From a virus (lineage: Duplodnaviria > Heunggongvirae > Uroviricota > Caudoviricetes): 64,000 nucleotides of DNA. Location of the stretch: the IMG/VR virus record IMGVR_UViG_2877251553_000001, positions 10,207 through 74,206 of that record. The stretch is one strand, 5' to 3'. Position 1 is the stretch's first letter, and each line of letters opens with the position of its first letter. Of this stretch, positions 15,223 through 54,618 are shown piece after piece. The notes below the pieces were generated by a model. That model did not search any database. It was given only the letters and a program-made list of their open reading frames with translations, and was not told the origin of the DNA. Position numbers and translations under genes: made by a program.

Positions 15223-15228
15223 AACTCA

Positions 15229-21397: not shown

Positions 21398-21406
21398 GAG
21401 GCTCTG

Positions 21407-22105
21407 ATGCAGGATATTCCACAGGAAACACATCATGAGACGACACGCCTCACTCAGTCAGCCCAGGTGGTGCTCTGGGAAATCGATCTGACAGAGGTCG
21501 GTGGTGAACGTTATTTTTTCTGTAATGAGCAGAACGAAAAAGGTGAGCCGGTTACCTGGCAGGGGCGGCAGTATCAGGCATACCCCATTCAGGGGACAGG
21601 ATTTGAACTGAACGGCAAGGGCAGTGCTGCCCGTCCGACACTGACGGTTTCTAACCTGCACGGTATGGTCACCGGGATGGCGGAAGATCTGCAGAGTCTG
21701 GTCGGCGGAACGGTGGTCCGGCGTAAGGTTTACGCCCGTTTTCTGGATGCGGTGAACTTCGTCAACGGAAACAGTGACGCCGACCCGGAGCAGGAGGTGA
21801 TCAGCCGCTGGCGCATCGAGCAGTGCAGCGAACTGAGCGCGGTCAGTGCCTCTTTTGTACTGGCCACGCCGACGGAAACGGACGGCGCTGTTTTTCCGGG
21901 ACGTATCATGCTGGCCAACACCTGCACCTGGACCTATCGCGGCGATGAGTGCGGTTATCACGGTCCGGCGGTCGCGGATGAATATGACCAGCCAACGTCC
22001 GATATCACGAAGGATAAATGCAGCAAATGCCTGAGCGGTTGTAAGTTCCGCAATAACGTCGGCAACTTTGGCGGCTTCCTTTCCATTAACAAACTTTCGC
22101 AGTAA
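21407..22105 (+). CDS. L: Minor tail protein L
   Basis: 232 aa, lambda gpL size; C-terminal Cys cluster. Confidence 0.8.
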   Translation: MQDIPQETHHETTRLTQSAQVVLWEIDLTEVGGERYFFCNEQNEKGEPVTWQGRQYQAYPIQGTGFELNGKGSAARPTLTVSNLHGMVTGMAEDLQSLVGGTVVRRKVYARFLDAVNFVNGNSDADPEQEVISRWRIEQCSELSAVSASFVLATPTETDGAVFPGRIMLANTCTWTYRGDECGYHGPAVADEYDQPTSDITKDKCSKCLSGCKFRNNVGNFGGFLSINKLSQ

Positions 22106-22110
22106 ATCCC

Positions 22111-22854
22111 ATGACAGAAACAGAATCAGCGATTCTGGCGCACGCCCGGCGATGTGCGCCAGCGGAGTCGTGCGGCTTCGTGGTGAGAACGCCGGAGGGA
22201 GAAAGATATTTTCCCTGCGTGAATATCTCCGGTGAGCCGGAGGAGTATTTCCGGATGTCGCCGGAGGACTGGCTGCGGGCAGAAATGCAGGGTGAGATTG
22301 TGGCGCTGGTCCACAGCCACCCCGGTGGTCTGCCCTGGCTGAGTGAGGCTGACCGGCGGCTGCAGGTGCAGAGTGATTTGCCGTGGTGGCTGGTCTGCCG
22401 GGGTGAGATTCATAAATTCCGCTGTGTGCCGCATCTCACCGGGCGGCGCTTTGAGCACGGGGTGACGGACTGTTACACGCTGTTCCGGGATGCTTACCAT
22501 CTGGCGGGGATTGAGATGCCGGATTTTCATCGCGGGGATGACTGGTGGCGTAACGGTCAGAATCTCTATCTGGATAATCTGGAGGCCACAGGGCTGTATC
22601 AGGTGCCGTTGTCAGCGGCGCAGCCGGGCGATGTGCTGCTGTGCTGTTTTGGTTCATCGGTGCCGAATCATGCCGCTATTTACTGCGGCGACGGCGAGCT
22701 GCTGCACCATATTCCTGAACAACTGAGCAAACGAGAGAGGTATACCGACAAATGGCAGCGACGCACACACTCCCTCTGGCGTCACCGGGCATGGCACGCA
22801 TCTGCCTTTACGGGGATTTGCAACGATTTGGCCGCCGCATCGACCTTCGTGTGA
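22111..22854 (+). CDS. K: Tail assembly protein K (peptidase-like)
   Basis: Lambda gpK-like sequence including HSHPGG motif. Confidence 0.8.
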   Translation: MTETESAILAHARRCAPAESCGFVVRTPEGERYFPCVNISGEPEEYFRMSPEDWLRAEMQGEIVALVHSHPGGLPWLSEADRRLQVQSDLPWWLVCRGEIHKFRCVPHLTGRRFEHGVTDCYTLFRDAYHLAGIEMPDFHRGDDWWRNGQNLYLDNLEATGLYQVPLSAAQPGDVLLCCFGSSVPNHAAIYCGDGELLHHIPEQLSKRERYTDKWQRRTHSLWRHRAWHASAFTGICNDLAAASTFV

Positions 22855-23399
22855 AAACGGGGGCCGAAGCCATCCGGGCGCTGGCCACACAGCTCCCGGC
22901 GTTTCGTCAGAAACTGAATGACGGCTGGTATCAGGTGCGCATTGCCGGGCGTGATGCAGGTGAAACCGAATTATCTGCCCGTCTTAATGAGCCGCTGGCA
23001 AATGGTGCCGTGATCCATATCGTGCCGCGTCTGGCGGGAGCTAAAAGTGGCGGTGTGTTTCAGGTGGTGCTGGGGGCGGCGTTGATTGCGGTGGCATGGT
23101 GGAACCCTGTGGGCTGGCTGGGTGCCGCGGCTGTATCGGGCATGTATGCGGCAGGGGCCAGTATGATCCTGGGCGGTGTGGCGCAGATGCTGGCACCGAA
23201 AGCCAGGACGTCCACGGCAGCCAGTACAGATAACGGCAAACAGAACACCTATTTTTCCTCACTGGATAACATGGTTGCTCAGGGCAATGTTTTGCCTGTT
23301 CTGTACGGTGAAATGCGTGTGGGGTCGCGGGTGGTTTCTCAGGAGATCAGCACGGCAGACGAAGGGGACGGTGGTCAGGTTGTGGTGATTGGTCGCTGA
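22752..23399 (+). CDS. I: Tail assembly protein I; start uncertain, overlaps K
   Basis: C-terminus matches lambda gpI (TDNGKQNTYFSSLDNMVAQGNVLPVLYGE). Confidence 0.7.
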   Translation: MAATHTLPLASPGMARICLYGDLQRFGRRIDLRVKTGAEAIRALATQLPAFRQKLNDGWYQVRIAGRDAGETELSARLNEPLANGAVIHIVPRLAGAKSGGVFQVVLGAALIAVAWWNPVGWLGAAAVSGMYAAGASMILGGVAQMLAPKARTSTAASTDNGKQNTYFSSLDNMVAQGNVLPVLYGEMRVGSRVVSQEISTADEGDGGQVVVIGR

Positions 23400-23459
23400 T
23401 GCAAAATGTTTTATGTGAAACCGCCTCCGGGCGGTTTTGTCGTTTATGGAGCATGACGA

Positions 23460-26857
<3,398 letters not shown>

Positions 26858-26923
26858 ATTTTATAACCCAGAACGGGCGCCAGAAATGACGCCTTTTTTA
26901 TTGCAGAAAAGCGAGAGGTAATT

Positions 26924-27519
26924 ATGCGTAAAGTTTGTGCAGCAATTTTGTCCGCAGCCATTTGTCTGGCCGTATCCGGTGCGCCTGCATGGGCGTCTGA
27001 ACATCAGTCCACGCTGAGCGCGGGTATCTTCATGCCTCGACGAACGTCCCCGGCAGTGATGATCTGAACGGGATTAACATGAAATACCGTTATGAGTTTA
27101 CGGACACACTGGGGCTGGTGACGTCATTCAGCTATGCAGGAGACAAGAATCGCCAGCTGACCCGTTACAGCGATACCCGCTGGCATGAAGATTCCGTTCG
27201 TAACCGCTGGTTCAGCGTAATGGCGGGCCGTCTGTGCGCGTGAATGAATGGTTCAGCGCGTATGCGATGGCGGGTGTAGCTTACAGCCGTGTGTCGACTT
27301 TCTCCGGGGATTATCTTCGCGTAACTGACAACAAGGGGAAAAAGCACGATGTGCTGACCGGAAGTGATGACGGTCGCCACAGCAACACGTCTCTGGCGTG
27401 GGGGCTGGCGTGCAGTTTAACCCGACCGAATCCGTGTCCATTGATATTGCTTATGAAGGCTCCGGCAGTGGTGACTGGCGCACTGACGGTTTCATCGTGG
27501 GTGTCGGTTATAAATTCTG
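26924..27519 (+). pseudogene. lom: lom-like outer membrane protein gene, multiple frame disruptions
   Basis: Lambda Lom-like translation recoverable only by switching frames at three G/C runs. Confidence 0.7.
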
Positions 27520-27584
27520 ATTAGCCAGGTAACACAGTGTTATGACAGCCCGCCGGTTCAGGCGGGCTTTTTTGTGGGTGAATA

Positions 27585-29959
27585 TGGCAGTAAAGATTTC
27601 AGGTGTACTGAAAGACGGCACAGGAAAACCGGTACAGAACTGCACAATCCAGCTGAAAGCAAAACGTAACAGCACCACGGTGGTGGTGAACACGCTGGCC
27701 TCAGAAAATCCGGATGAAGCCGGGCGTTACAGCATGGACGTTGAGTACGGGCAGTACAGCGTTATTCTGTTGGTGGAGGGATTCCCGCCGTCACATGCCG
27801 GGACCATCACCGTGTATGAAGATTCCCGACCCGGTACGCTGAATGATTTTCTCGGTGCCATGACGGAGGATGATGCCCGTCCTGAGGCACTGCGCCGTTT
27901 TGAACTGATGGTGGAAGAGGTGGCGCGTAACGCGTCCGCGGTGGCACAGAACACGGCAGCCGCGAAGAAGTCAGCCAGTGATGCCAGCACATCAGCCCGT
28001 GAGGCGGCAACCCATGCGACTGATGCTGCAGGCTCAGCACGCGCAGCCAGCACATCAGCCGGGCAGGCCGCGACGTCGGCTCAGTCAGCGTCTTCCAGCG
28101 CAGGAACGGCATCAACAAAGGCCACTGAAGCCTCAAAAAGTGCTGCCGCTGCAGAGTCCTCAAAAAGCGCGGCAGCTACCAGTGCCGGTGCGGCGAAAAC
28201 GTCAGAAACGAATGCGGCAGCGTCACAAAAATCTGCAGCCACTTCTGCATCCGCAGCGACCACAAAGGCGTCAGAAGCTGCCACCTCAGCCCGGGATGCG
28301 GCGGCCTCAAAAGAGGCAGCGAAATCATCAGAAACGAACGCATCATCAAGCGCCAGTAGTGCCGCTTCCTCGGCAACGGCGGCAGGAAATTCCGCGAAGG
28401 CGGCAAAAACGTCCGAGACGAACGCCAGGTCTTCTGAAACGGCAGCGGGACAGAGTGCCTCAGCTGCGGCAGGCTCAAAAACAGCGGCTGCATCATCTGC
28501 CAGTGCCGCATCAACAAGTGCCGGGCAGGCCTCAGCCAGTGCCACCGCTGCCGGAAAGTCGGCAGAAAGTGCCGCATCGTCTGCTTCAACAGCCACAACG
28601 AAGGCTGGCGAAGCCACTGAACAGGCCAGCGCAGCAGCGAGGTCAGCTTCCGCAGCGAAGACATCCGAAACGAACGCGAAAGCGTCGGAAACCCGTGCAG
28701 AATCCTCAAAAACGGCTGCCGCATCGTCAGCCAGTTCGGCGGCGTCATCGGCATCATCGGCGTCTGCTTCAAAAGATGAGGCGACCAGACAGGCGTCAGC
28801 AGCGAAGGGCAGCGCCACGACAGCATCCACGAAGGCGACAGAGGCAGCTGGCAGTGCGACGGCGGCAGCACAGAGCAAAAGTACGGCGGAATCCGCGGCA
28901 ACGCGCGCTGAGACAGCGGCAAAACGTGCAGAGGATATTGCATCCGCCGTGGCGCTTGAGGATGCGAGCACGACGAAAAAGGGGGTAGTACAGCTCAGCA
29001 GTGCGACCAACAGCACGTCTGAAACGCTGGCGGCAACGCCAAAGGCAGTAAAAGCAGCCTATGACAATGCAGAGAAACGTCTGCAGAAAGACCAGAACGG
29101 TGCTGATATTCCCGACAAGGACCGCTTCCTGAGTAACATTAATGTTTACAGCAAAGGTGAAGTGGATCAGAAAAAGGGGATGCGATACGTTGTGGTAAAT
29201 GCCCCGGCGGGTGTCCAGGAAGGTAAATATTATCCGTTAGTGATAAAAAGGAATGACAGCCATCGAGCATCCCGCGTTGTCATTTCAACGCCAAGGCGCA
29301 CAGCTAATCACAGAATGAATAACTGTGAGTTTAATGGTTTTGTTTGCACAGGCGGCTGGACGGACCGGGGTAGCTATGCCTGTGGTATGTTCTGGGCTTA
29401 TTCATCATCGGAACGCGCTATTCATTCCATTCTGATGAGTAATAAAGGCGATACCGTAGACAGCGTATTCTATATAGAAGGTGGGGCATTTCCCGTAGAG
29501 GTTTTTTTAGAAGAAGGACTCTCCGTTACTGCACCTGCTTCTGATTATGTTGTTGCTGAAACAACTTATAAATTTGGTGCAACTGATCCTTATTCTGAAT
29601 CAGTTGCTGTAAATTTAATTTTAGATTTTAAACAAGGTAATGGATTTTATAGTTCGTATCCTGTTTTGAGTAAGTCAGATATTAGCGGGAATAAGATTTA
29701 CGCTAATGATGAAGTTATTGTCCGTAGTCAGAACGCGTTAAGGATGATTGCAGGCGATTACGGTGTCATATGGCGAAATGATGGAGCAAATACTTACTTG
29801 CTCATGACTGATAAAGGCGACCAGTACGGTGGCTGGAACGGTCTTCGACCATTTGCTGTAAATAACGCAACAGGTGAAGTGACGATCAATACACCACTTA
29901 ATTCGCCTAAGGGATTAAGGGAAATTCTGATACAGCTACGAAACTTCAGACAGCAATAA
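27585..29959 (+). CDS. stf: Side tail fibre protein Stf with divergent AT-rich C-terminal domain
   Basis: N-terminus MAVKISGVLKDGTGKPVQNCTIQLKA and Ala/Ser-rich shaft match lambda Stf; last ~280 aa differ and are AT-rich. Confidence 0.75.
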
Positions 29960-30872
29960 AAATATCTGGTGTTTCGTTTGATGGTTCTACTGATATCACT
30001 TTAACCGCTGCGCATGTTGCTGCTTTTGCCAGAAGAGCAACGGATACGTATGCCGATGCGGATGGGGCGTTCCCTGGAATGCCGAATCAGGCGCTTATAA
30101 TGTCACCCGCTCTGGCGACAGCTATATTCTGGTTAACTTCTATACCGGAGTCGGAAGTTGCCGGACCTTGCAGATGAAGGCGCATTACAGAAATGGTGGT
30201 CTGTTCTACCGTTCTTCAAGAGACGGTTATGGTTTTGAGGAAGACTGGGCAGAAGTTTATACCTCGAAAAATCTTCCACCAGAAAGCTACCCAGTCGGCG
30301 CACCAATCCCGTGGCCATCAGATACCGTTCCGTCTGGTTATGCCCTGATGCAGGGGCAGACTTTTGACAAATCTGCTTACCCGAAACTTGCAGCTGCTTA
30401 TCCGTCAGGCGTGATCCCTGATATGCGTGGCTGGATGATTAAGGGCAAGCCCGCCAGTGGTCGAGCCATATTGTCTCAGGAACAGGACGGCATTAAATCG
30501 CACACCCACAGCGCCAGCGCATCCAGTACGGATTTGGGTACGAAAACCACATCGTCGTTTGATTACGGCACTAAATCCACGAATAACACCGGGGCGCATA
30601 CCCATAGTGTTAGCGGTACGGCTGCTTCAGCCGGTGCACATACCCATTCGATGACATTTGTTTCAGGTGGTTCCAGTGGTGCTCCGGGAAGTGGATCACC
30701 TGATTATTCTAAATACAGTGTTAACACTTCTTCTGCAGGCGCTCATACGCACTCTGTATCGGGTACTGCTGCAAGCGCAGGTTAGACTGGCCCCTGAATC
30801 TCCAGACAACCAGTATCACTTAAATAAGTGATAGTCTTAATACTAGTTTTTAGACTAGTCATTGGAGTACAG

Positions 30873-31238
30873 ATGATTGATGTCTTAGGGCCGGAGAAAC
30901 GCAGACGGCGTACCACACAGGAAAAGATCGCAATTGTTCAGCAGAGCTTTGAACCGGGGATGACGGTCTCCCTAGTTGCCCGGCAACATGGTGTAGCAGC
31001 CAGCCAGTTATTTCTCTGGCGTAAGCAATACCAGGAAGGAAGTCTTACTGCTGTGGCCGCCGGAGAACAGGTTGTTCCTGCCTCTGAACTTGCTGCCGCC
31101 ATGAAGCAGATTAAAGAACTCCAGCGCCTGCTCGGCAAGAAAACGATGGAAAATGAACTCCTCAAAGAAGCCGTTGAATATGGACGGGCAAAAAAGTGGA
31201 TAGCGCACGCGCCCTTATTGCCCGGGGATGGGAGTAAG
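30873..31238 (+). CDS. insC: IS2 transposase OrfA (InsC)
   Basis: Begins [20 protein letters not shown], matching IS2 InsC; 3' end approximate. Confidence 0.7.
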
Positions 31239-32100
31239 CTTAGTCAGCCGTTGTCTCCGGATGTCGCGTGCGCAGTTGCACGTCATTCTCAGACGAACCG
31301 ATGACTGGATGGATGGCCGCCGCAGTCGTCACACTGATGATACGGATGTGCTTCTCCGTATACACCATGTTATCGGAGAGCTGCCCACGTATGGTTATCG
31401 TCGGGTATGGGCGCTGCTTCGCAGACAGGCAGAACTTGATGGTATGCCTGCGATCAATGCCAAACGTGTTTACCGGATCATGCGCCAGAATGCGCTGTTG
31501 CTTGAGCGAAAACCTGCTGTACCGCCATCGAAACGGGCACATACAGGCAGAGTGGCCGTGAAAGAAAGCAATCAGCGATGGTGCTCTGACGGGTTCGAGT
31601 TCTGCTGTGATAACGGAGAGAGACTGCGTGTCACGTTCGCGCTGGACTGCTGTGATCGTGAGGCACTGCACTGGGCGGTGACTACCGGCGGCTTCAACAG
31701 TGAAACAGTACAGGACGTCATGCTGGGAGCGGTGGAACGCCGCTTCGGCAACGATCTTCCGTCGTCTCCAGTGGAGTGGCTGACGGATAATGGTTCATGC
31801 TACCGGGCTAATGAAACACGCCAGTTCGCCCGGATGTTGGGACTTGAACCGAAGAACACGGCGGTGCGGAGTCCGGAGAGTAACGGAATAGCAGAGAGCT
31901 TCGTGAAAACGATAAAGCGTGACTACATCAGTATCATGCCCAAACCAGACGGGTTAACGGCAGCAAAGAACCTTGCAGAGGCGTTCGAGCATTATAACGA
32001 ATGGCATCCGCATAGTGCGCTGGGTTATCGCTCGCCACGGGAATATCTGCGGCAGCGGGCTTGTAATGGGTTAAGTGATAACAGATGTCTGGAAATATAG
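31228..32100 (+). CDS. insD: IS2 transposase OrfB (InsD)
   Basis: DDE transposase sequence of IS2 InsD. Confidence 0.7.
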
Positions 32101-32262
32101 GGGCAAATCCACAGGTGCACACGCACATACTGTCGGTATTGGTGCTCATACGCACTCCGTTGCGATTGGTTCACATGGACATACCATCACCGTTAACGCT
32201 GCTGGTAACGCGGAAAACACCGTCAAAAACATCGCATTTAACTATATTGTGAGGCTTGCATA

Positions 32263-32847
32263 ATGGCATTCAGAATGAGTGAACAACCACGGACCATAAA
32301 AATTTATAATCTGCTGGCCGGAACTAATGAATTTATTGGTGAAGGTGACGCATATATTCCGCCTCATACAGGTCTGCCAGCAAACAGTACCGATATTGCA
32401 CCGCCAGATATTCCGGCAGGCTTCGTGGCTGTTTTCAACAGTGATGAGGCATCGTGGCATCTCGTTGAAGATCATCGGGGTAAAACGGTTTATGACGTGG
32501 CTTCCGGCGACGCGTTATTTATTTCTGAACTCGGTCCGTTACCGGAAAATGCCACTTGGTTATCCCGGAAGGGAGTTTCAGAAGTGGAACGGCACAGCCT
32601 GGGTGAAAGATGCAGAAGCAGAAAAACTGTTCCGGATCCGGGAGGCGGAAGAAACAAAAAACAGCCTGATGCAGGTAGCCAGTGAGCATATTGCGCCACT
32701 TCAGGATGCTGTAGATCTGGAAATCGCAACGGAGGAAGAAACCTCATTGCTGGAAGCCTGGAAAAAGTATCGGGTGTTGCTGAACCGTGTTGATACATCA
32801 ACTGCACCGGATATTGAGTGGCCAGAAGAACCAGACACCGTGTAAGC
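32263..32847 (+). CDS. tfa: Tail fibre assembly protein Tfa; apparent frameshift near 32565
   Basis: N-terminus [20 protein letters not shown] matches lambda Tfa; frames rejoin at C run 32565-32567. Confidence 0.8.
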
Positions 32848-32906
32848 AAAAAAGAAAAACCGCAGACACGACGTATGCATGACGTGCTGCGGTTTATGCT
32901 TATCAC

Positions 32907-33730
<824 letters not shown>

Positions 33731-34091
33731 TCATTGCAAGGGCTCACAACCAGTAGTGTTGAGAAAACCATCGGAGAAATGAGGCTAAGCCTTTGAATTT
33801 ACATAGTACAAAAAAGATACTTTTCCTCATAATGTGAGCTAATTTTATGTTTCGTTTGATGATTGGACCGGTCTCGAAAACCGTAGACACATAGTATGCG
33901 TTAATTTATGAACAAACTACTTGTCTGCTGTTTTTCTGTCATTAGTCGTATATAGAATGATTCTCTATGCCTAACAAAGCATCACCAGTGCTAGATTACG
34001 TTGTAGTCACTGTTTAAATATCCAGATAAAACATTTCCTTCTGGGTTGAATGAGTGATAAAGTTTCACCCATTAGACCCCTTGGAGGAATT

Positions 34092-35524
34092 ATGTCTGAA
34101 TTTGAAGTGTTGGCACAGCATCTGCTGAAGGAAGCCGAGGCGGAAGAAAAGCTGCGACAGGAAAATGATAAAAAGCTTATCGAGAAAGTGCTGGAAATCT
34201 ATGATCAGAAGTATGTGGCTGAATTACTGAGAAAAGTCGGAAAAAATGAGTGGAGCCGTGAAACCATTAACCGCTGGATTAATGGCAAGTGTTTACCAAA
34301 ATCGTTGACTTCAGTAGAAGAGTCTCTTCTGCGTAAGATGCTACCAGAACCACCTGCAAACCATCCGGAATATGCTTTCCGCTTCATTGACTTATTTGCT
34401 GGAATTGGAGGGATACGGAAAGGTTTTGAGGCCATTGGAGGCCAGTGTGTTTTTACCAGTGAATGGAATAAAGATGCTGTGCGTACATACAAGGCCAACT
34501 GGTTTAACGATGAACAGGTGCATAAATTCAATCTCGATATTCGGGAAGTCACGCTGAGTGATAAAACCGATGTATTGGAAACGGATGCTTATGCATATAT
34601 TGATGAGCATGTGCCGGATCATGATGTGCTTCTTGCGGGGTTCCCGTGCCAGCCATTTAGCCTTGCTGGTGTTAGTAAGAAAAACTCACTTGGTCGTGCG
34701 CATGGTTTTGAATGTGAAGCACAAGGAACACTTTTTTTTGACGTGGCACGTATTATACGAGCAAAAAAACCGGCAATTTTTGTGCTGGAAAATGTCAAAA
34801 ATCTGAAGAGCCATGATAAGGGTAAAACTTTCAAAGTCATTATGGAGACCCTTGACGAGCTGGGCTACGAAGTTGCCGATGCTGCAGAAATGGGAAAAAA
34901 CGATCCAAAGATTATCGATGGGAAGCATTTTTTGCCTCAGCATCGTGAACGCATTGTTCTGGTCGGATTTAGACGAGATCTGAATATTCACAAGGGGTTT
35001 ACCTTGCGTGATATCAGTCGTTTTTATCCGGAACACCGCCCATCATTTGGTGAATTGCTGGAGCCTGTAGTCGACAGTAAATATATACTTACGCCAAAAC
35101 TATGGGAGTACCTTTATAACTACGCCAAAAAGCATGCAGCCAAGGGGAATGGTTTTGGCTTTGGGTTGGTCAATCCTGAGAATAAGGAAAGCATTGCACG
35201 CACACTTTCTGCCAGATATCACAAAGACGGATCAGAAATTCTTATTGATCGTGGTTGGGATATGGCAACGGGAGAGGCTGACTTTATGAATGAGAGTAAT
35301 CAGGCTCGTCGACCACGCAGGCTGACTCCCGAGAGTGCGCACGCCTTATGGGATTTGAAAAACCTGGAGGGAAACCATTCCGTATTCCGGTTTCAGATAC
35401 TCAGTCATATCGGCAGTTCGGTAACTCAGTTGTGGTGCCAGTATTTGAAGCTGTTGCCAGACTTCTGGAACCCTATATCCTCAAAGCTGTTTCTGCTGAT
35501 GCTGGTAAGACTGGGCAGCCTTGA
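34092..35524 (+). CDS. DNA cytosine-5 methyltransferase, Dcm / M.EcoRII-like; apparent frameshift near 35328
   Basis: Motifs [46 protein letters not shown] match Dcm; 477 codons once C run 35328-35330 is corrected. Confidence 0.85.
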
Positions 35525-35558
35525 GAACATCTCCCGGCCTTTTAAGCCGGGAGTCAGC

Positions 35559-36767
35559 CTATGATAGTTCAGCGTAAAGCTCTATCAGCTCAGTAATGAA
35601 TGCTCCGAGCGTTATTAATTCTTCTCTAACTGCTTCTGGGTATTTTTTATGTAAAGTTGATGGTACAACGAGTCTGACACCCGCATCTTTCATTTCTCGG
35701 TATTGTGCTGAAGAAACACCTTCTTGCAGTGTAAATAAATGTACCTGATGGATTTTATCTGCTTCATTCAGTATCTGACGCCAGCGATCTTTGCAGGTGG
35801 TCTTTACTGCCAGCATACGTAAGTTTTCTACAGGAAATTCAACGTTATGATATGCCTCTGCTGAAGGAAACAGGAAATCTGGTTTTTTATTACCTTCAGT
35901 AACTGCCTGAGTGGAGAAATGCCGTAGTCCGTGCTCGATAAAAAGCTTCTCTAGGTGAAGTTCAAGTGATTTGCCTGCCCTTGATTTACGTCGATTACTG
36001 ACAGAGTTGGCTAATGCAATAAACTCATCTACAGAATCGAATCCTTTCTTAATAATATCAAGAACATGTAATTCCTCGACGAGTAGAAAAATATCATACT
36101 CGACACGCCGACGGTCAATCAGTTGCTCATCTGGATCCTTGGAGTTTTTAGCATAATGGCCAGCAGCATATTGAATAATTTCGTTTCCAGAAGGAAAACG
36201 CTTCTTCCAGTCTTCAGGAATAACATATTTATGATTTACTGGAGTTTGCTGAAGAGACAATCCGCCCAAAATTTGTCCGGCAGGGCCGGAAATTAGGGTT
36301 CCAGGTATGATTTCGCCAATAGCAGACTCGATGATATCCTCTTCATCGGGATTGACGCAGACCCATATATCTACCTCGGAACAGTCAGTGTTCTGTTCGT
36401 TTAACCTGAAAGCAAGAATTGTGAGGGCTCCTGTATTTTCAGGGTTCTGTAATGGACTTCCTCTCCCCCAGCGCGTAATTCTTTTTTCGTTTCGGGTCTT
36501 ACCAAAATAACGGTTGTTGTAATAAATTGCGCGTGCTTGGGTATCAGGGCAATCATGGGATGATACATGCGCAGTAAGGAAGACTGAAGGGTTCAGTTCG
36601 CGAGTATGATTGATAGATGGAAAAAGCTTTTCAACGATATTTGAGGGGATATAAAGTCCGACCTGATGGCCACCTGTTGCGCCTGTGTCGTTTGCAGAAA
36701 GGCGTTTGATGTAGATAAAGTAATTCCCGCTTGCGATATCAAGCAGCCAGTTATGAAAAACCGACAT
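35559..36767 (-). CDS. Type IIE restriction endonuclease, EcoRII-like
   Basis: About 400 aa; N-terminus SVFHNWLL...[23 protein letters not shown] matches EcoRII; convergent with the methyltransferase gene. Confidence 0.85.
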
Positions 36768-36845
36768 ATACATCCCTTTGTTAACATACAGTCAGGGTTA
36801 ACATTTTTCCATAGTTATAGATAAGCGGCTAGGAACTTAAGGGAA

Positions 36846-36875
36846 AAACAAAAAGCCCGCATAAGCGGGCTTTTG
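36846..36875. terminator. Bidirectional rho-independent terminator
   Basis: GCCCGCATAAGCGGGC hairpin flanked by A run and T run. Confidence 0.45.
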
Positions 36876-37002
36876 TGTCACTCGAGAGCCGCGGCTCCTT
36901 TGCGTATCCTTTTTTGTCTCCTCACCGTCTGGTCGGTGTCCTGCTGAGACTGCTAACTTCCTGTTTTTGTTGGTGTTGCCCTTACACCGTCCAATCATGA
37001 TT

Positions 37003-37034
37003 GGTGGAGCTGGCGGGAGTTGAAACCGTAGCCA
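37003..37034 (-). other. tmRNA (ssrA) 3'-end fragment, probable attachment-site core
   Basis: Minus strand ends TTCAACTCCCGCCAGCTCCACCA, identical to the last 23 nt of E. coli tmRNA as recalled; upstream does not match ssrA. Confidence 0.5.
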
Positions 37035-38436
37035 CGTCGTATGCAAGAACGTGCTACGACTGGCTGGTGAACTTCCGATAGTGCGAGTATTGAATGATTT
37101 CCAACTGTTATCGATTTTGCGTATTTTTTGCATGAGAGGATTTTTACCTCCTCCCACCGATCCTCCATGGCTTTACGCCAGTGTCTCTAGGACTGCTATG
37201 TGCCAAAAGCAGAACTTGCTTACATTGTGCTATGTTAATTTGTTGGGAGCAGGTCACAAAGTCCAGCCAGGACGAAAATAAATAATTGCCATACATTTAG
37301 TGTTGATTATTTCGGGATTGTTCATCTATTCTGATTGTATCAGCGAGCAGGCCGGAGTCACTCTTCGTGGAACATCCCATACTTCAGAAAACAATCGTTC
37401 TCTTTATTCTTGCCCTATGGGTAATTGATCCATTCAGGACAAAGAGAAGAAAGCATACTGAATCCACCATTGAAGAAGCCGATGCCAGAGAACGTCATAA
37501 ATGGCGATATCTCAGATGGGGAGTACGAACAATACAAATTGCAGCGACAGTATATATGTTTGCTATGCTGATTCAGTTTTTACTGAAGTAGACGGCTCAG
37601 GCAGGTACGACCGGACGGAATTGGCAGCCAATTCAGCGGAGGCCGGACGGGGTTAAACGTCCCCTCTGTGCCAGTGACCTGCTCCCCGTTGATTCACACG
37701 GAAGACTGTTAGAAATGTGCAATTTTTGCTCACAGCAGACTTTAAGAGTTGATTGTGTGTTGCACTGTGAGATCAAATCAAAACCAATATATTCAGGCAT
37801 CTTCCCACAGCGCCCCCATTCAACAGGCAATTGCTCCTTATCAAATCCCTCAAACCAGTAAACACTACTTTTTGCCCAACAATAGGCACTTCTCCCCAAC
37901 CCTAATGAAACAATGCGCGACTCCAGTCCGGCTTGAGACGACCATGCCGTTTAAGGCGCACACCATTACAAGCAGTTGCTCATATTGAGGGAAAGTTAAT
38001 AAAGAAACTTAACGGCATTTCCTCTTTTGCGCACGTTTCAATTGCCTTGATATCCAGTCTTGGTTACGTTTGCGAATTTTTTGTTTCATTGGCTACTGTT
38101 CTGATTCGACTCACTTATTAATCAATGATCTTACTGTATTCCAACGCCATGCTTTGTACAGGAATGTCCGCTTTTCGCTCATAACAGACATTAACTACAG
38201 TTATGGTAGAAGGTATGCATGCTGGGTGGGGAAAGTATGAAGGAAAAGAAGACTGCTGCGCCGTTTGTCGTCACATTTATCTTCATTGGCTATGCAAGTC
38301 GTAATACAAGGTGGGACAAAACTGAGACACATAAGGCCTCGCAATGACTTGCAAGGCTTTACATGTTTTGATGTGGTGGGACGTGTGAGCGCAGTGTTGA
38401 TGGGGTAATGCTTTGAATTAGAAGCGGATTCTTATA

Positions 38437-38482
38437 ATTCGTAATGCGAAGGTCGTAGGTTCGACTCCTATTATCGGCACCA
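38437..38482 (+). other. tRNA-Thr (CGU, thrW-like) 3' fragment, probable attachment-site core
   Basis: 46 nt from anticodon loop through CCA match thrW as recalled; no 5' half or acceptor partner upstream. Confidence 0.6.
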
Positions 38483-38594
38483 TTCAAACATCTCCCCAAG
38501 TCTACTAAAGTCTTTCAAAACCCCTTATAATCCGCGTATTAAAGCCCCGTTCGTCTTTTGACGCCTACTAAAGTCCCTCAAAATCTACGGTCAG

Positions 38595-38616
38595 ATGGGG
38601 GTACTTATGGGGGTAT
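38595..38616 (+). repeat. 22-bp element ATGGGGGTACTTATGGGGGTAT, left copy of an inverted pair
   Basis: About 20 of 22 positions match the reverse complement of 53464-53485; lies about 30 bp upstream of the integrase start. Confidence 0.5.
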
Positions 38617-38647
38617 TTGCTGTTCGGTTTAGTGGAGGTACCCCCAA

Positions 38648-39862
38648 GTGAAACTCAATGCCCGTCAAATAGACACAGCCAAGCCAAAAGAGAAGGCTTA
38701 CAAGCTGGCCGATGGTGGCGGTTTGTATCTCTTGGTAAAACCTAATGGAGGTAAATACTGGCGACTTAAATATCGTGTAGCTGGTAAAGAGAAGCTATTG
38801 GCACTAGGTGTGTATCCTGAGGTTACTCTAGCCGATGCTCGGGCAAAACGTGAAGATGCGAAAAGAGGTATCGCTGGTGGTATCGATCCGATGGAAGCGA
38901 AACGAGAGGAAAAGATTGCCCGGGAAACGCAGTTAAACAACACCTTCAAAGATATTGCCCTTGAGTGGCACAGCAGCAAATTAAAAAAATGGTCTGCTGG
39001 TTATGCTTCAGACATCCTCGAAGCCTTCAACAAAGATGTGTTCCCTTACATTGGCAAAAAACCAATCGCCGAAATCAAACCACTTGAACTTCTGAATGTG
39101 CTGCGGCGCATCGAGGGGCGCGGTGCTACAGAAAAAGCCAAAAAAGTGAGGCAGCGGTGCGGGGAAGTTTTCCGCTATGCAATAGTCACTGGTCGCGCAG
39201 AGTATAACCCTGCACCAGACCTTACTAGCGCGATGCAAGGCCATGAATCTAATCATTACCCTTTCCTTACAGCTAAAGAATTACCTGATTTTTTCAAGGC
39301 ATTGTCCAGTTACTCAGGAAGCGCATTGGTTGTTATGGCGGCTCGTCTACTGATTATCATCGGCTTGCGGACTGGCGAACTACGTGGCGCATTATGGGAT
39401 GAAATTGATTTCAACAAGGCTATCTGGGAGATACCCGCTTCACGTATGAAAATGCGGCGGCCTCATATTGTGCCATTGTCTGATCAGGCTCTTTCGCTTA
39501 TTGGGAAGATTAGAGAAATAACAGGCAATTACCCTCTTATGTTTCCCGGGCGCAATGATCCAAGGAAAACAATGAGTGAGGCCAGCATAAACCAAGTGTT
39601 TAAGCGCATTGGCTACGCTGGACGTGTAACTGGTCATGGGTTCCGGCACACTATGAGCACGATTTTGCATGAGCAGGGCTATAACACCGCGTGGATAGAA
39701 ACGCAGCTCGCTCACGTTGATAAGAACTCAATTCGTGGCACATACAACCATGCGCAATATCTGGATGGAAGGCGGGAGATGCTTCAATGGTATGCCGACT
39801 ATATGGATGCGCTGGAGAAGGAGGAGAACGTTGTTCATGGTTCGTTTGGGAAACGAGCTTAA
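38648..39862 (+). CDS. Tyrosine integrase, P4-like
   Basis: 404 aa with C-terminal HGFRHT, LAH and RGxY catalytic motifs; adjacent to tRNA fragment. Confidence 0.85.
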   Translation: MKLNARQIDTAKPKEKAYKLADGGGLYLLVKPNGGKYWRLKYRVAGKEKLLALGVYPEVTLADARAKREDAKRGIAGGIDPMEAKREEKIARETQLNNTFKDIALEWHSSKLKKWSAGYASDILEAFNKDVFPYIGKKPIAEIKPLELLNVLRRIEGRGATEKAKKVRQRCGEVFRYAIVTGRAEYNPAPDLTSAMQGHESNHYPFLTAKELPDFFKALSSYSGSALVVMAARLLIIIGLRTGELRGALWDEIDFNKAIWEIPASRMKMRRPHIVPLSDQALSLIGKIREITGNYPLMFPGRNDPRKTMSEASINQVFKRIGYAGRVTGHGFRHTMSTILHEQGYNTAWIETQLAHVDKNSIRGTYNHAQYLDGRREMLQWYADYMDALEKEENVVHGSFGKRA

Positions 39863-39925
39863 CTGTATGAATAGACCGTGTTAAGCAATGGTAGTAGACT
39901 TATGTAGACGAACAAAGAATAGGCT

Positions 39926-40276
39926 ATGTCTAGGCTGATCCCGAAAACCCGTACACCCCTACGGGCTGGCATAGCCGTCAGAATTAGGGGCGCGGGGTGG
40001 CGTATGGTGAGAGCCAAAAAACAAGATTTAGCATGGTTTGATATTAGTAATTATGAATTTTTAAATGATTTAACCTTGCCGGACTTGATTCAAGAATTAG
40101 AGTGGCGCGATTTTTTATTGCGTCATGCAAAAGATGACACTGCTATATTCAAAGAAGAGTACGATATAAAATATGAAAGGATTTTTTCGGGCGATCCTAA
40201 CCTAACCATTCTCAATGAAGAAGAGGAAGAGGTCGAAGAATTTATTCGCAAAGTAAATGATGAAGCCCATCATTAA
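39926..40276 (+). CDS. Hypothetical protein with acidic C-terminus
   Basis: ORF in AT-rich DNA just downstream of integrase; start uncertain. Confidence 0.35.
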   Translation: MSRLIPKTRTPLRAGIAVRIRGAGWRMVRAKKQDLAWFDISNYEFLNDLTLPDLIQELEWRDFLLRHAKDDTAIFKEEYDIKYERIFSGDPNLTILNEEEEEVEEFIRKVNDEAHH

Positions 40277-40349
40277 GAAATGAGTACGATGATCTACCCT
40301 CATTATCTTCAGCTATGGGGTTAGTCCAGTAACATTTTCAGAGCTGGCC

Positions 40350-40691
40350 ATGTACTCTTTCTCATCGATAGATCAAGGCTTTTTTAAAAGAGACGAAGAG
40401 GATTGCTACCTCAAGGCAAACGCTATGCTTGCGAGTGTTACTGGAAACCTAAGTAATTGTTCCCCTAACATCATACTCGTTTCTATAGATTTAGATGACG
40501 CCACTGATGACGAAATTATTACCAGCCTGACTCACCTTCTACCTCTATGGCGAAAAGAGTTAAAAGTACCAGAGAGAGAGCATGTCGCTCAGAAAAGGAT
40601 TGGATTAAAGACCCTTCAGAAGTTGATATCTAATAGAGTGATACCTATTGTTGATCTGCTGATTTGGGTGAGAAGTCAGGTAAGGAAGTGA
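40350..40691 (+). CDS. Hypothetical protein
   Basis: 113-aa ORF, AT-rich; overlaps next ORF. Confidence 0.35.
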   Translation: MYSFSSIDQGFFKRDEEDCYLKANAMLASVTGNLSNCSPNIILVSIDLDDATDDEIITSLTHLLPLWRKELKVPEREHVAQKRIGLKTLQKLISNRVIPIVDLLIWVRSQVRK

Positions 40692-40882
40692 GCAATCCGA
40701 TGATTTCTGCCTTGGTTTTTAGTGATGATCCGAAAGATACGCAGGCTATTAAGGAATCAATAAAGCCTTTTGCACTTGAATCTATAAGCGAGAGATACAC
40801 CCGCTTGCTTCAGCTTTATGTAAACAAAGACAGAGAAATGAGCTTGATAAAAATATCTGATTTAATGAGTAGAGATTTATAG
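40664..40882 (+). CDS. Hypothetical small protein
   Basis: 72-aa ORF overlapping previous ORF in another frame. Confidence 0.3.
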   Translation: MGEKSGKEVSNPMISALVFSDDPKDTQAIKESIKPFALESISERYTRLLQLYVNKDREMSLIKISDLMSRDL

Positions 40883-41079
40883 CAAGCAAAATCCTACGTA
40901 AACGTTTTAAGTAAATTTCGCGATTTCCGCTTTGAATACGCTACTGTGTATTTCAAAGCGGATAATCTTCTCAAAAAAATATTTTATTTTTATCCGCTAT
41001 CACCCATTCACCGGTTTGTTTAATCTCCTTTCTGTCTACTGATGTCCATTAAAGAAGATGACAGAATATAGGAGTAAAC

Positions 41080-41277
41080 ATGTCTCAATCATTTATTCGT
41101 CTTTCTGAGGTTCAACGCCGTACTGGTTACAGCAAAGTGTGGATTTATCGGCTCATCAAAGAACAGCGATTCCCTCAATCTGTAAAGATTGGAAGCCGAT
41201 CAATTGCGTTTATTGAAAGTGAAATTGAAGAATGGATTAATCAGCGCATCGCTGAGTCGCGTGGCGAGGTAGCGTAA
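41080..41277 (+). CDS. AlpA-family transcriptional regulator
   Basis: 65 aa helix-turn-helix protein with AlpA-like pattern; typical partner of P4-like integrases. Confidence 0.7.
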   Translation: MSQSFIRLSEVQRRTGYSKVWIYRLIKEQRFPQSVKIGSRSIAFIESEIEEWINQRIAESRGEVA

Positions 41278-41615
41278 TGAATAAGAAAAACCGCCCATTA
41301 CAGGCGGCTAATTCAGATATTCGCGTATCTGATGTTACGCCCCTTACAAAATCCCTTCAAGCACCAAAGCGCACACCGAAAAAGCATCGTGCCAGAGTCT
41401 ATATGCTGCGTACTGGTATAGAGGGATGGACAGAAAATGACATTCTTCGCTACTGCCGTCTGTCTTCTGGTCGTAACTATGCAACAGAGTTAGAACGCCA
41501 GCTTGGAATCACTCTGGAACGTATCGACGAAAAGAATCCTGATGGTATCGGAACACACCTTCGCTACCGTTTCTCCTGCCGTGGTGATGTTCTGAAAGTG
41601 ATCACTCATATGTAA
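41277..41615 (+). CDS. Hypothetical island protein
   Basis: 112-aa ORF, ATGA-coupled to the AlpA-like gene. Confidence 0.4.
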   Translation: MNKKNRPLQAANSDIRVSDVTPLTKSLQAPKRTPKKHRARVYMLRTGIEGWTENDILRYCRLSSGRNYATELERQLGITLERIDEKNPDGIGTHLRYRFSCRGDVLKVITHM

Positions 41616-52858: not shown

Positions 52859-52929
52859 TAAAAAAAGAACAAATGGTAGTGTCCGCTATTGCCAGTACAC
52901 CTCACCGGGTGGCATGGATAAACCCGGAA

Positions 52930-53376
52930 GAGAGTAAATCAAACCGCGCAATTGGCGTTGCGCTGAATGATACTGCATGTCGCGTATTGAAAAAACAAAT
53001 CGGGAATCATCACCGTTGGGTATTTGTGTATAAGGAAAGCTGTACCAAACCAGACGGAACGAAAGCGCCAACAGTCAGGAAGATGCGGTATGACGCAAAC
53101 ACAGCCTGGAAAGCGGCGCTGAGACGAGCAGGTATTGATGATTTCAGATTTCACGACTTGAGACACACCTGGGCAAGTTGGCTGGTTCAAGCCGGAGTCC
53201 CGTTATCAGTGTTACAGGAAATGGGAGGCTGGGAGTCTATCGAAATGGTTCGTCGATATGCTCACCTCGCACCTAATCACCTTACCGAACACGCACGGCA
53301 AATAGACTCGATTCTGAACCCATCGGTCCCAAATTTGTCCCAGTCAAGAAATAAGGAACGTACTAATGATGTGTAA
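52930..53376 (+). pseudogene. Tyrosine integrase C-terminal fragment (phage Int / Xer type)
   Basis: Catalytic HDLRHT and RYAHL motifs present; no N-terminal domain; start approximate. Confidence 0.6.
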
Positions 53377-53463
53377 CTTATTGATTTAAATGGATAATAG
53401 GAACAATACACATAGGCGATAAGCTTTGTTTTTGTTGCCTTTTTTATTGTTCATTTTTTATAG

Positions 53464-53485
53464 ATACCCCCAAAAGTACCCCCAT
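53464..53485 (-). repeat. 22-bp element, right copy of the inverted pair with 38595-38616
   Basis: Reverse complement reads ATGGGGGTACTTTTGGGGGTAT; about 85 bp downstream of the integrase fragment. Confidence 0.5.
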
Positions 53486-53603
53486 ATCTTTTTCCGCCCC
53501 TGAAATTTGGTTGTTATTCATACAGCATATCAGGCGGTAACGCTCTCCCTTTAACCCACTTATTGTATGATAGTGCTATCCCACAATAAGGAATCAGCCA
53601 GCC

Positions 53604-54498: not shown

Positions 54499-54618
54499 GC
54501 AAATCCTGAATAAATGCGAATCGGAAGGATAACGATACTGACGTACTCACAATTCTGTAAAGGTGAATAAAGGAAATTTGCTTAATACGCATAAGGTACA
54601 TGTGGAATAATCCCATAT

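What the first reader, a model, noticed from the sequence alone, without database searches (positions are those of the whole stretch)
36846..38482. Two attachment-site relics 1.4 kb apart: tmRNA 3' end and tRNA-Thr 3' end
The last 23 nt of tmRNA are present on the minus strand at 37003-37025 and the last 46 nt of a thrW-like tRNA on the plus strand at 38437-38482, neither with a gene body. Both are classic integration cores for phages and P4-like islands. Their proximity and opposite orientation imply sequential or tandem integrations followed by rearrangement; which core bounds which element is not resolvable from this window.
Basis: partly seen in the sequence, partly recalled or inferred. 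Interest (0 to 1): 0.45.

Follow-up and report, generated by a model that had tools for sequence, protein, structure and literature searches.

The report
One live, one fossil phage attachment site
Both short RNA-gene ends are real phage attachment-site cores, but only the tRNA-Thr one marks a boundary (between a lambda-like prophage and a neighbouring integrative element), while the tmRNA one is a leftover attachment site carried inside the prophage; this is ordinary prophage anatomy.

Summary
There is no tRNA or tmRNA gene in the window.

The two pieces are different kinds of thing. The thrW core is a working junction in a tandem array. It is the attR of a ~45-kb lambdoid prophage with an SfII/P22-type attP arm. 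The intact thrW and its integrase lie about 6 kb left of the window, as seen in strain KKa014. The same core is the attL of a P4-type-integrase element, whose own degenerate, inverted right-hand core I found at 53391-53401.

The ssrA piece bounds nothing here. It is the core of a PhiNP/LLS-type ssrA attP (24 of 25 nt of the experimentally mapped PhiNP attP). It comes with the 152-nt trailer and terminator that such phages use to rebuild ssrA. It has the same polarity towards the tail-fibre genes as in LLS, but no cognate integrase. The same unit sits inside prophages at dusA and yecE and in viral contigs.

The opposite orientation follows from the two module designs, not from rearrangement. 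Real IS-mediated rearrangements do exist, further right. This is ordinary and of low interest.

The parts
1..38436 (+). Right (late-gene) part of a lambdoid prophage: nin/Q region, lysis, terminase, head, tail, J, lom, tail fibre, accessory region. Its left end (int next to intact thrW) lies outside the window.
   Evidence: 594 E. coli genomes hold >=80% of window 1-25000; terminase, portal, tape measure and J are annotated. (window 32112-38492 is 99.9% identical to the KKa014 prophage end). (KKa014 left end: proA, thrW, int, xis, yfdT/R/Q/P, cI...; the prophage is about 44.9 kb).
34050..36773 (.). EcoRII-type restriction-modification cargo: C5 methylase at 34050-35564 (+) and EcoRII-like endonuclease at 35559-36773 (-). 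It lies immediately left of the tmRNA unit.
   Evidence: Pfam DNA_methylase 2e-60; EcoRII-N 4e-61; EcoRII-C 2e-71. (PGAP annotation in KKa014).
36850..37001 (-). 152-nt 'block': a homologue of the sequence that follows ssrA in the chromosome (3' trailer), ending in a rho-independent terminator hairpin at 36851-36874. It is the far arm of a PhiNP/LLS-type attP and would rebuild the 3' trailer and terminator of ssrA on integration.
   Evidence: 91-93% to the native flank in 536 and at the K-12 CP4-57 attR; all sequences diverge right after the hairpin. (91% to LLS, 86% to PhiNP). (terminator-like, 10 bp, 6 GC, T-run, minus strand).
37002..37024 (-). 23 nt identical to the 3' end of tmRNA (from the T-loop to CCA). 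This is the core of a vestigial ssrA-type attP; 37002-37026 matches the 25-bp PhiNP attP at 24 of 25 positions.
   Evidence: PhiNP attP sequence from PMC6456863.
37025..37217 (-). Near arm ('X arm') of the relic. It is shared with other phage- or island-borne copies: the dusA prophage in pSX12-2, the yecE prophage in W224N, and 23CRST025. It contains a 90-nt repeat (37034-37123) that PGAP labels a capsid-protein fragment.
37218..38311 (.). Variable spacer between the two att modules. It has only small ORFs with no Pfam match. It is replaced by other DNA in CH4784 and is shorter or longer (0.4-2.7 kb between the cores) in viral contigs. Part of it (38164-38371) resembles the region near attP of phage 21.
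38312..38436 (+). P arm of an SfII/SfI/SfIV (P22-like) thrW-type attP.
   Evidence: window 38312-38488 is 96-97% identical to the annotated attP regions of Shigella phages SfII, SfI and SfIV.
38437..38482 (+). 46-nt core identical to the thrW 3' end. It is the attR of the lambdoid prophage and, at the same time, the attL of the adjacent P4-type-integrase element (the middle site of a tandem array).
   Evidence: 46/46 to thrW of KKa014. (in KKa014 the chromosomal flank follows). (CH4784 has the same core followed by the same integrase).
38483..41615 (+). Left end of the P4-type-integrase element: int at 38648-39862, int-alpA RNA at 39923-39989, and downstream small genes.
   Evidence: Arm-DNA-bind_3, Phage_int_M and Phage_integrase domains. 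(int-alpA RNA, 47 bits against a gathering score of 35.8). (99.7% to EC26 L012 22057-25072).
53391..53401 (-). Third, degenerate thrW core (CCTATTAT-----CCA on the minus strand). It is the junction between the right end of the P4-type element and the P' arm of a thrW-type phage, and it is inverted relative to the other thrW core.
   Evidence: alignment with EC26 attR CCTATTATCG-CACCA and with KKa014 attL. (six genomes, e.g. 18AR0366, have the same junction with the 15-nt core in direct orientation).
52906..53390 (+). 3' fragment (156 codons) of a thrW-type phage integrase plus its P' arm, inverted.
   Evidence: 98.2% to the KKa014 int end. (Phage_integrase profile positions 54-171). (98.7% aa identity to residues 217-372 of the KKa014 integrase).
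53402..55519 (-). Right end of the P4-type-integrase element (hypothetical protein, pRiA4b ORF-3 family, PerC-like), inverted relative to its left end.
   Evidence: 98.7% to EC26 L012 3001-5152, which abuts yagP'-paoD there.

Best explanation
The two cores are unrelated in role.

(A) thrW core, 38437-38482. This is a functional-type junction of a tandem array at the thrW locus. A ~45-kb lambdoid prophage with an SfII/P22-type integration module integrated into thrW. The intact tRNA gene, rebuilt from phage DNA, and the phage integrase lie at the prophage's left end, about 6 kb beyond the window start. The displaced 46-nt tRNA fragment marks its right end (attR). A second integrative element with a P4-type integrase uses the same tRNA end and begins at that fragment (its attL). 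Its own right-hand fragment is the short, degenerate core at 53391-53401. That core is joined to the int end of yet another thrW-type phage remnant, and it now lies inverted within an IS-rich, rearranged region.

(B) ssrA piece, 37002-37024. This is the core of a second, vestigial attP carried inside the lambdoid prophage's accessory region. In phages such as PhiNP and LLS the order is xis, int, (one gene), [tmRNA 3' end, ~150-nt trailer, terminator], cargo, tail fibres. On integration into ssrA the phage copy rebuilds the tmRNA 3' end and its terminator. The prophage here keeps that unit in the same place and polarity. In place of the ssrA-specific int module it has a different near arm, a variable spacer and the thrW-type attP/int module.

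Shown: the identity, position, polarity and distribution of the unit, and the absence of a cognate integrase. Inferred: that the unit was left behind when the integration module was exchanged by recombination among mosaic temperate phages, and that it is now non-functional.
For: thrW core:
- 46/46 identity to thrW.
- P arm 96-97% identical to the annotated attP of SfII/SfI/SfIV.
- KKa014 carries the same prophage end (99.9%) followed directly by the K-12-type chromosomal flank yagP'-paoDCBA-yagU-ykgJ. At the other end it has proA, intact thrW, int, xis.
- CH4784 has the same core followed by the same P4-type integrase.
- The integrase has the P4-type domain set and is followed by int-alpA RNA.
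- The element's right end with its short core is seen next to yagP' in EC26 and next to a phage int remnant in 18AR0366.

ssrA piece:
- 23/23 to ssrA and 24/25 to the experimentally mapped PhiNP attP.
- It is followed by a 152-nt block that is 91% identical to LLS and 86% to PhiNP and ends in a terminator.
- LLS annotates this very stretch as 'tmRNA pseudogene' and attP, between int and the cargo/tail fibres.
- The unit is 91% identical to LLS whereas the flanking late genes are 71-77%, and it has the same orientation relative to them.
- The same arm-core-block unit lies inside prophages at dusA and yecE, with decayed cores.
- 108 complete E. coli genomes hold >=80% of window 36780-37300.
- Four of seven IMG/VR contigs with the relic also have the thrW 46-mer in the same relative arrangement, with spacers of 0.4-2.7 kb.
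- The window has no relative of the LLS/PhiNP integrase, which are 85% identical to each other.
Against: - The prophage's left end and the intact thrW are not in the window. They are inferred from KKa014, which shares the last ~6.4 kb at 99.9% but differs in places further left.
- The module-exchange history is inferred, not observed. No phage was found that has this particular near arm (X arm) together with a cognate ssrA integrase.
- In 23CRST025 the same arm-core-block lies at the end of a CP4-57-like island, so the near arm may come from an island rather than a phage.
- The 152-nt block is also the native chromosomal sequence downstream of ssrA. Capture of chromosomal DNA therefore cannot be excluded as the ultimate origin.
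- The core is intact over 23 nt and the arms are well conserved, so residual activity with an integrase supplied in trans is not excluded.
Confidence: 0.8

Rival explanations
1. Chromosomal capture. An ancestor prophage or island resident at ssrA excised aberrantly, as in specialised transduction, and carried off a complete attR junction: element arm, core and about 150 nt of bacterial DNA downstream of ssrA. That junction then spread among phages.
For: The block is 91-93% identical to the native sequence after ssrA in the empty-site strain 536 and after the CP4-57 attR in K-12, up to and including the terminator. In 23CRST025 the same arm-core-block is contiguous at the end of a CP4-57-like island.
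Against: Viable phages LLS and PhiNP carry core plus block as part of their normal attP region, with the same polarity. No aberrant event is therefore needed in the recent lineage. The near arm is found downstream of dinI in several prophages. This rival may still describe the remote origin of ssrA-type attP sites in general, and it is not exclusive of the main explanation.
Confidence: 0.12
2. The ssrA fragment is the displaced end of an element that integrated at ssrA in this genome, later brought next to thrW by inversion or translocation.
For: It is a genuine att-type junction whose identity starts in the T-loop. The window does contain IS-mediated inversions elsewhere.
Against: Both flanks are prophage DNA: R-M cargo on the left, and the near arm, spacer and Sf-type P arm on the right. 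The identical arrangement is present in KKa014, where only 1.4 kb separate it from the chromosome flank, and no ssrA, smpB or ssrA-type integrase is nearby. The unit occurs in prophages at dusA and yecE and in viral contigs. The canonical ssrA locus (smpB-ssrA) is far from proA-thrW in E. coli.
Confidence: 0.03
3. The relic is still a usable secondary attP, or has been exapted. Either an ssrA-specific integrase supplied by a co-resident phage can recombine it with ssrA, or the unit is kept because its terminator insulates the EcoRII cassette from read-through.
For: 23 nt are exact. The arms are 88-96% conserved among copies. The terminator is strong and lies about 75 nt upstream of the endonuclease start on the same strand.
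Against: There is no cognate integrase in the window. Position 24 of the 25-bp PhiNP core is changed, and the LLS-annotated attP segment upstream of TTCA is absent. Sister copies in other prophages carry indels in the core, as expected without selection on the core.
Confidence: 0.05

Closest known systems
attP of Citrobacter phage PhiNP (25-bp ssrA 3' end; Magaziner et al. 2019, PMC6456863) and of Escherichia phage LLS (GenBank PQ299149, annotated 'tmRNA pseudogene'/attP)
   Same: Same core (24/25 to PhiNP). Same downstream ~150-nt block with terminator (91% to LLS, 86% to PhiNP). Same position between the cargo/tail-fibre end and the integration module, and same polarity.
   Different: There is no adjacent ssrA-specific integrase or excisionase. 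The arm on the int side is replaced by an unrelated 'X arm'. tmRNA identity stops at the T-loop, whereas LLS has 39 nt. The host prophage is integrated at thrW, not at ssrA.
attP/attR of thrW-integrating phages SfII, SfI, SfIV, SfV, SfX and P22
   Same: A core that is the 3' part of thrW, and a P arm 96-97% identical to the annotated Sf attP regions. The prophage lies between proA-thrW and the downstream chromosome, as in KKa014.
   Different: The phage body is lambda-like (siphovirus late genes, lom, stf/tfa), not P22- or Sf-like. Only the integration module is shared. That the P22 common core is 46 bp is my recollection and was not tested here.
Tandem arrays of islands at one tDNA (Islander/TIGER concept; Hudson, Lau and Williams 2015, PMC4383910)
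   Same: Each member has its own integrase and its own displaced tDNA fragment. The internal fragment serves as attR of one member and attL of the next (for the definition; for the data).
   Different: The second member's right-hand fragment is degenerate (11 nt with a gap) and inverted, and the element is interrupted by IS66- and IS3-type insertions.
CP4-57 attR at ssrA in E. coli K-12
   Same: A partial tmRNA 3' end followed by the same ~150-nt native flank and terminator.
   Different: In K-12 it really is a boundary at the ssrA locus, next to ypjA. Its element-side arm is unrelated and its core is shorter and more degenerate.

Membership tests
SfII/P22-type thrW attachment junction (attR) | Core identical to the 3' part of the thrW gene | tested here: met
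   46/46 to thrW of KKa014
SfII/P22-type thrW attachment junction (attR) | Element-side arm homologous to a characterised attP P arm | tested here: met
   Window 38312-38488 is 96-97% identical to the annotated attP of SfII, SfI and SfIV
SfII/P22-type thrW attachment junction (attR) | Intact thrW and a cognate integrase at the other end of the same prophage | tested here: inconclusive
   Met in the close relative KKa014 (proA, thrW, int, xis). In the source genome this end lies outside the window.
SfII/P22-type thrW attachment junction (attR) | Chromosomal flank resumes after the core when no further element is present | tested here: met
   In KKa014 the core is followed by TTAAAATCAAAGAG... 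and yagP'-paoDCBA
SfII/P22-type thrW attachment junction (attR) | Excision or integration activity | not testable with these tools
   Needs induction and junction PCR
PhiNP/LLS-type ssrA attP (functional member) | 25-bp core equal to the ssrA 3' end | tested here: inconclusive
   24/25: 23 exact, then A for C at position 24
PhiNP/LLS-type ssrA attP (functional member) | Downstream trailer plus terminator able to rebuild ssrA | tested here: met
   152-nt block, 91% to LLS, with a terminator at 36851-36874
PhiNP/LLS-type ssrA attP (functional member) | Cognate ssrA-specific integrase and excisionase adjacent on the 5' side of the tmRNA fragment | tested here: not met
   No relative of the LLS/PhiNP integrase in the window. 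The adjacent DNA is the X arm, the spacer and the thrW-type attP. It is therefore filed as a vestige, not a functional member.
PhiNP/LLS-type ssrA attP (functional member) | Location between the integration module and the cargo/tail-fibre end, with the tmRNA fragment pointing to the cargo | tested here: met
   Same orientation as LLS relative to the late genes. The PhiNP layout agrees.
   No tmRNA gene in the window. To the right of the fragment lie the thrW core at 1.4 kb and, in KKa014, the chromosome flank.
Tandem island array at a tDNA (Islander definition) | Each member has its own integrase and its own tDNA fragment | tested here: met
   Prophage: int (in KKa014) plus the 46-nt fragment. 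P4-type element: int at 38648-39862 plus a degenerate fragment at 53391-53401. The latter is inverted and damaged.
P4-type (CP4-like) tyrosine integrase | Arm-DNA-bind_3, central and catalytic domains, followed by the int-alpA RNA/alpA region | tested here: met
   Pfam 1e-28, 1e-34 and 2e-25. int-alpA RNA at 39923-39989 above gathering score.

The most novel reading that the evidence does not exclude
The retained ssrA-type attP unit (intact 23-nt core, conserved arms, terminator) might still be a substrate for PhiNP/LLS-type integrases supplied by co-resident or superinfecting phages. A thrW prophage could then relocate to ssrA, recombine with ssrA-resident prophages, or drive thrW-ssrA chromosomal rearrangements. 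In effect it would be a latent second integration specificity, kept in more than 100 E. coli lineages.
Probability: 0.06. Interest if true: 0.45.

Novelty: already known. Interest (0 to 1): 0.14.

Why it matters
Mostly as a cautionary example for annotation. A tDNA fragment is not always an island boundary. Fragment-based island finders, and human readers, can be misled by vestigial attP cores that travel inside mosaic prophages. Here the ssrA fragment would suggest a false ssrA-related boundary 1.4 kb from a true thrW boundary.

It also illustrates integration-module exchange among lambdoid phages. The thrW-type module sits exactly where the ssrA-type module sits in LLS and PhiNP. Finally, it documents a three-member, IS-scrambled array at thrW. 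None of this is unexpected to a specialist.

Tried and rejected
- **Chance match:** rejected. 0 of 100 shuffles gave either core.
- **Hidden tRNA or tmRNA gene at these positions:** rejected (ARAGORN; Rfam). The only nearby Rfam hits are sub-threshold ones driven by the terminator or a hairpin (STnc350 27 bits against 60; CssrB 24 against 76).
- **A second full copy of the thrW core as the right end of the P4-type element:** none with up to 3 mismatches. The right end turned up only through comparison with EC26, as a gapped 11-nt core in inverted orientation.
- **The near arm as a dinI remnant:** not supported. dinI precedes the arm in pSX12-2 and W224N, but in the window and in 23CRST025 the sequence upstream of the shared ~110-190 nt is different, and the small ORFs there have no Pfam match.
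- **Species spread of the relic:** two scans of the species-representative genome collection with junction patterns gave 0 hits, so nothing can be said beyond E. coli-type genomes and seven IMG/VR contigs.
- **EC26 as a 'P4-type element only' reference directly next to thrW:** not so. A 3.2-kb ORF lies upstream of its integrase, with no tRNA within 3.5 kb.
- **A search for Williams' 'Traffic at the tmRNA gene'** failed on term length and was not repeated. What I recall of that paper is not used as evidence.
Full report
**1. The observation**

Both strings are in the window. ATTCGTAATGCGAAGGTCGTAGGTTCGACTCCTATTATCGGCACCA occurs once, at 38437-38482 on the + strand. Neither is expected by chance: no shuffle of the window gave a match.

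ARAGORN finds no tRNA or tmRNA gene in the 64 kb. Rfam finds none either, at gathering scores or at E<=10 around the site.

Comparison with real genes confirms the identities:
- The 46-mer equals the last 46 nt of the intact tRNA-Thr gene next to proA in E. coli KKa014.
- The 23-mer equals the last 23 nt of ssrA in strain 536.
- Upstream of the 23 nt there is a mismatch (T for G) exactly at the 5' edge of the T-loop.

**2. What surrounds them**

Window 1-38436 is the late half of a lambdoid prophage: terminase, portal, protease-capsid fusion, tape measure, J, lom, tail fibre and assembly genes. It ends in an accessory region with a GIY-YIG gene and an EcoRII-type restriction-modification pair at 34050-36773.

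Window 32112-38492 is 99.9% identical to a prophage end in E. coli KKa014. There the sequence after the 46-mer is the chromosome: a truncated yagP-like LysR gene, then paoDCBA, yagU, ykgJ and ecp, which is the K-12 flank of the thrW/CP4-6 locus.

At the other end of the KKa014 prophage, 44.9 kb away, lie proB, proA, an intact tRNA-Thr, a tyrosine integrase, an excisionase-like gene and the early genes yfdT/R/Q/P. The 46-mer is therefore the attR of this prophage. The intact thrW would lie about 6.4 kb left of the window start.

Window 38312-38488 is 96-97% identical to the annotated attP of Shigella phages SfII, SfI and SfIV, which the SfII record describes as similar to P22 attP. The integration module is thus of the thrW-specific Sf/P22 type, although the phage body is lambda-like.

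**3. The element to the right of the thrW core**

In the window the 46-mer is not followed by chromosome. It is followed by a 404-aa integrase with the P4-type domain set (Arm-DNA-bind_3, central and catalytic domains), and then by int-alpA RNA. CH4784 has the same prophage end, the same core and the same integrase. The 46-mer therefore serves twice, as attR of the prophage and as attL of a second element. This is the internal site of a tandem array as defined by Hudson, Lau and Williams (PMC4383910).

No second full core exists in the window. Comparison with EC26, where a ~21-kb version of the element abuts yagP'-paoD, located its right end. In EC26 it reads ...TATTGTT|CCTATTATCG-CACCA|TTAAAATCAAAGAG..., a 15-nt core followed by the same chromosomal flank as in KKa014.

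In the window the same right end is present at 53402-55519, but inverted. It is joined through a further-deleted core (CCTATTAT-----CCA, 53391-53401) to the P' arm and the last 156 codons of a thrW-type phage integrase (52906-53390). Six complete E. coli genomes have this junction with the 15-nt core, and in 18AR0366 it lies in direct orientation.

The thrW locus therefore held at least three members: prophage, P4-type element, and a second thrW-type phage. The element is now interrupted and partly inverted:

| Window | Feature |
|---|---|
| 43134-45634 | IS66-type insertion |
| 45643-46890 and 49781-52342 | inverted pair of IS copies |
| 46891-49791 | segment between the pair, flipped relative to EC26 and CH4784 |
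| 56477-58557 | another IS66 |
| 58557-62783 | second copy of a lambdoid nin/Q region |

These are the real rearrangements in the window.

**4. The ssrA piece**

Read on the minus strand, the 23 nt are followed by 152 nt (37001 to 36850). These are 91-93% identical to the sequence that follows ssrA in many E. coli chromosomes. Two examples are the empty site of strain 536 (smpB, ssrA, block, glaH) and the far side of CP4-57 in K-12 (ypjF, partial core, block, ypjA). The block ends in a strong terminator hairpin (36851-36874), and all compared sequences diverge immediately after it.

On the other side of the core, about 190 nt (37025-37217) are shared with 23CRST025, pSX12-2 and W224N.

The same arm-core-block unit, however, sits inside prophages integrated elsewhere:
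- next to dusA, in the order dusA, int, dinI, unit, cargo, invertase, tail fibres;
- next to yecE, in the order yecD, yecE', dinI, unit, cargo.

In both of these the core carries small deletions.

Free phages carry core plus block too. In Escherichia phage LLS the stretch is annotated 'tmRNA pseudogene' and attP. It lies between gp31-int-xis and the cargo/invertase/tail-fibre end. The genome record of Citrobacter phage PhiNP begins with it and ends with xis, int and an ATPase. For PhiNP the attP was mapped experimentally as the 25 bp TGGTGGAGCTGGCGGGAGTTGAACC, the 3' end of ssrA, and integration reconstitutes an intact ssrA (PMC6456863). The window's + strand reads TGGTGGAGCTGGCGGGAGTTGAAAC at 37002-37026, which is 24 of 25.

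A real ssrA lysogen (UTAK-23) shows the expected order smpB, ssrA, block, dinI, effector cargo.

**5. Polarity**

In LLS the late genes are on the + strand and the tmRNA fragment is on the - strand. The fragment points from the integration module towards the cargo and tail-fibre end, so that on integration the phage copy completes ssrA and supplies its trailer and terminator.

The window's unit aligns with LLS in the same orientation relative to the late genes. It is 91% identical, while the late genes themselves are only 71-77% identical.

In the Sf/P22-type module the tRNA fragment points the other way, from the cargo end towards int. The opposite orientation of the two cores is therefore what one expects when the two module types occupy the same place in a lambdoid genome. 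No inversion is needed.

**6. Is the relic functional?**

- The integrases of LLS and PhiNP are 85% identical to each other. The window has no relative of them, only distant similarity (25-38% over part of the length) to its two other tyrosine recombinases.
- The LLS-annotated attP segment upstream of TTCA is absent, replaced by the unrelated near arm.
- Position 24 of the PhiNP core is changed.
- Sister copies have indels in the core.

I conclude that the unit is a vestige. The most likely history is inferred rather than shown: exchange of the integration module by recombination among mosaic temperate phages. The KKa014 prophage and LLS share the yfdP/Q/R early genes next to their different int modules.

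The unit is common. 108 complete E. coli genomes hold at least 80% of window 36780-37300. Of seven IMG/VR contigs with the diagnostic GGTTTCAAC variant, four also have the thrW 46-mer in the same relative arrangement, with spacers of about 0.4, 1.4, 2.6 and 2.7 kb. The 1.4-kb spacing is thus one state of a variable accessory spacer in which I found no recognisable gene.

**7. Rivals**

- Capture of chromosomal DNA by aberrant excision from ssrA may be the remote origin of the block. It is not needed for this lineage, because viable phages carry the unit as their attP.
That scenario was an element integrated at ssrA in this genome, followed by rearrangement.
- Residual activity with an integrase supplied in trans, or exaptation of the terminator upstream of the EcoRII endonuclease gene, cannot be excluded but has no positive support.

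**8. Comparison with known systems, and verdict**

The thrW core meets the tested criteria of an Sf/P22-type attR and of a tandem-array internal site. The ssrA unit has the core, block and polarity of a PhiNP/LLS-type attP but fails the criterion of an adjacent cognate integrase. I therefore file it as a vestige of that family, not a functional member.

Everything here belongs to well-known kinds. The main value is as a warning that tDNA fragments inside prophages are not always boundaries. Interest is low.

Noticed in passing
window 38483-55519 (compare L012, EC26): The P4-type-integrase element at thrW has an unusual gene set in its intact ~21-kb form in EC26: int, AlpA-like HTH, AntA/AntB antirepressor, Ash, a TOPRIM-DUF927 primase, and also P22-like DNA ejection/injection proteins and a lytic transglycosylase fragment. 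Ejection proteins are unusual cargo for a satellite-like element.
   Followed up: partly
window 43134-45634, 45643-46890, 49781-52342, 56477-58557: IS66-type and IS3-type (ALIL pseudoknot at 51018-51134) insertions. An inverted IS pair flanks segment 46891-49791, which is flipped relative to EC26 and CH4784. The element's right end (52906-55519) is also inverted.
   Followed up: partly
window 48058-48145 (-) and 48208-48285 (-): C4 antisense RNA and isrK RNA (Rfam, above gathering score) lie in the inverted segment next to the ant/ash genes. This suggests a P1/P7-style ImmI-like antirepressor control module on the element.
   Followed up: no
window 34050-36773: EcoRII-type restriction-modification pair (C5 methylase plus EcoRII N/C-domain endonuclease) carried as prophage cargo. 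The terminator of the tmRNA unit lies about 75 nt upstream of the endonuclease start.
   Followed up: partly
window 37034-37123; L001 16953-17042: A 90-nt repeat inside the relic's near arm is labelled 'capsid protein (partial)' by PGAP in KKa014, probably spuriously. It recurs at 84% identity between ykgJ and ecpE, and near the attP region of phage 21 and lambda-like phages.
   Followed up: partly
window 58557-62783 versus window 1-2661: A second copy of a lambdoid replication/nin/Q region, 96-97% identical to the first. It indicates a second lambdoid prophage (or remnant) at the right edge and offers long homology for recombination.
   Followed up: no
window 32604-32802: IS009 RNA (Rfam RF02111, 229 bits) inside the prophage tail-fibre/accessory region.
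   Followed up: no
L023 (IMGVR_UViG_2713896833_000003): A 14.4-kb viral contig that contains the same relic and R-M region is flanked at both ends by the thrW 46-mer in direct orientation. It may be a short element, or a deleted prophage still bounded by both att sites.
   Followed up: no
L014 (EC26, upstream of the element's integrase): In EC26 the P4-type integrase is not next to thrW. A 3.2-kb hypothetical ORF lies upstream and there is no tRNA within 3.5 kb, so EC26 also has something else between thrW and the element.
   Followed up: no
L024 / L012 / L010 att flanks: The native chromosomal flank after thrW (TTAAAATCAAAGAGTTACC) and the phage P' arm (TTTAAATCAATAAGTTACAC) are similar for about 20 nt beyond CCA. 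The thrW-type attP homology therefore extends a little past the tRNA end.
   Followed up: no
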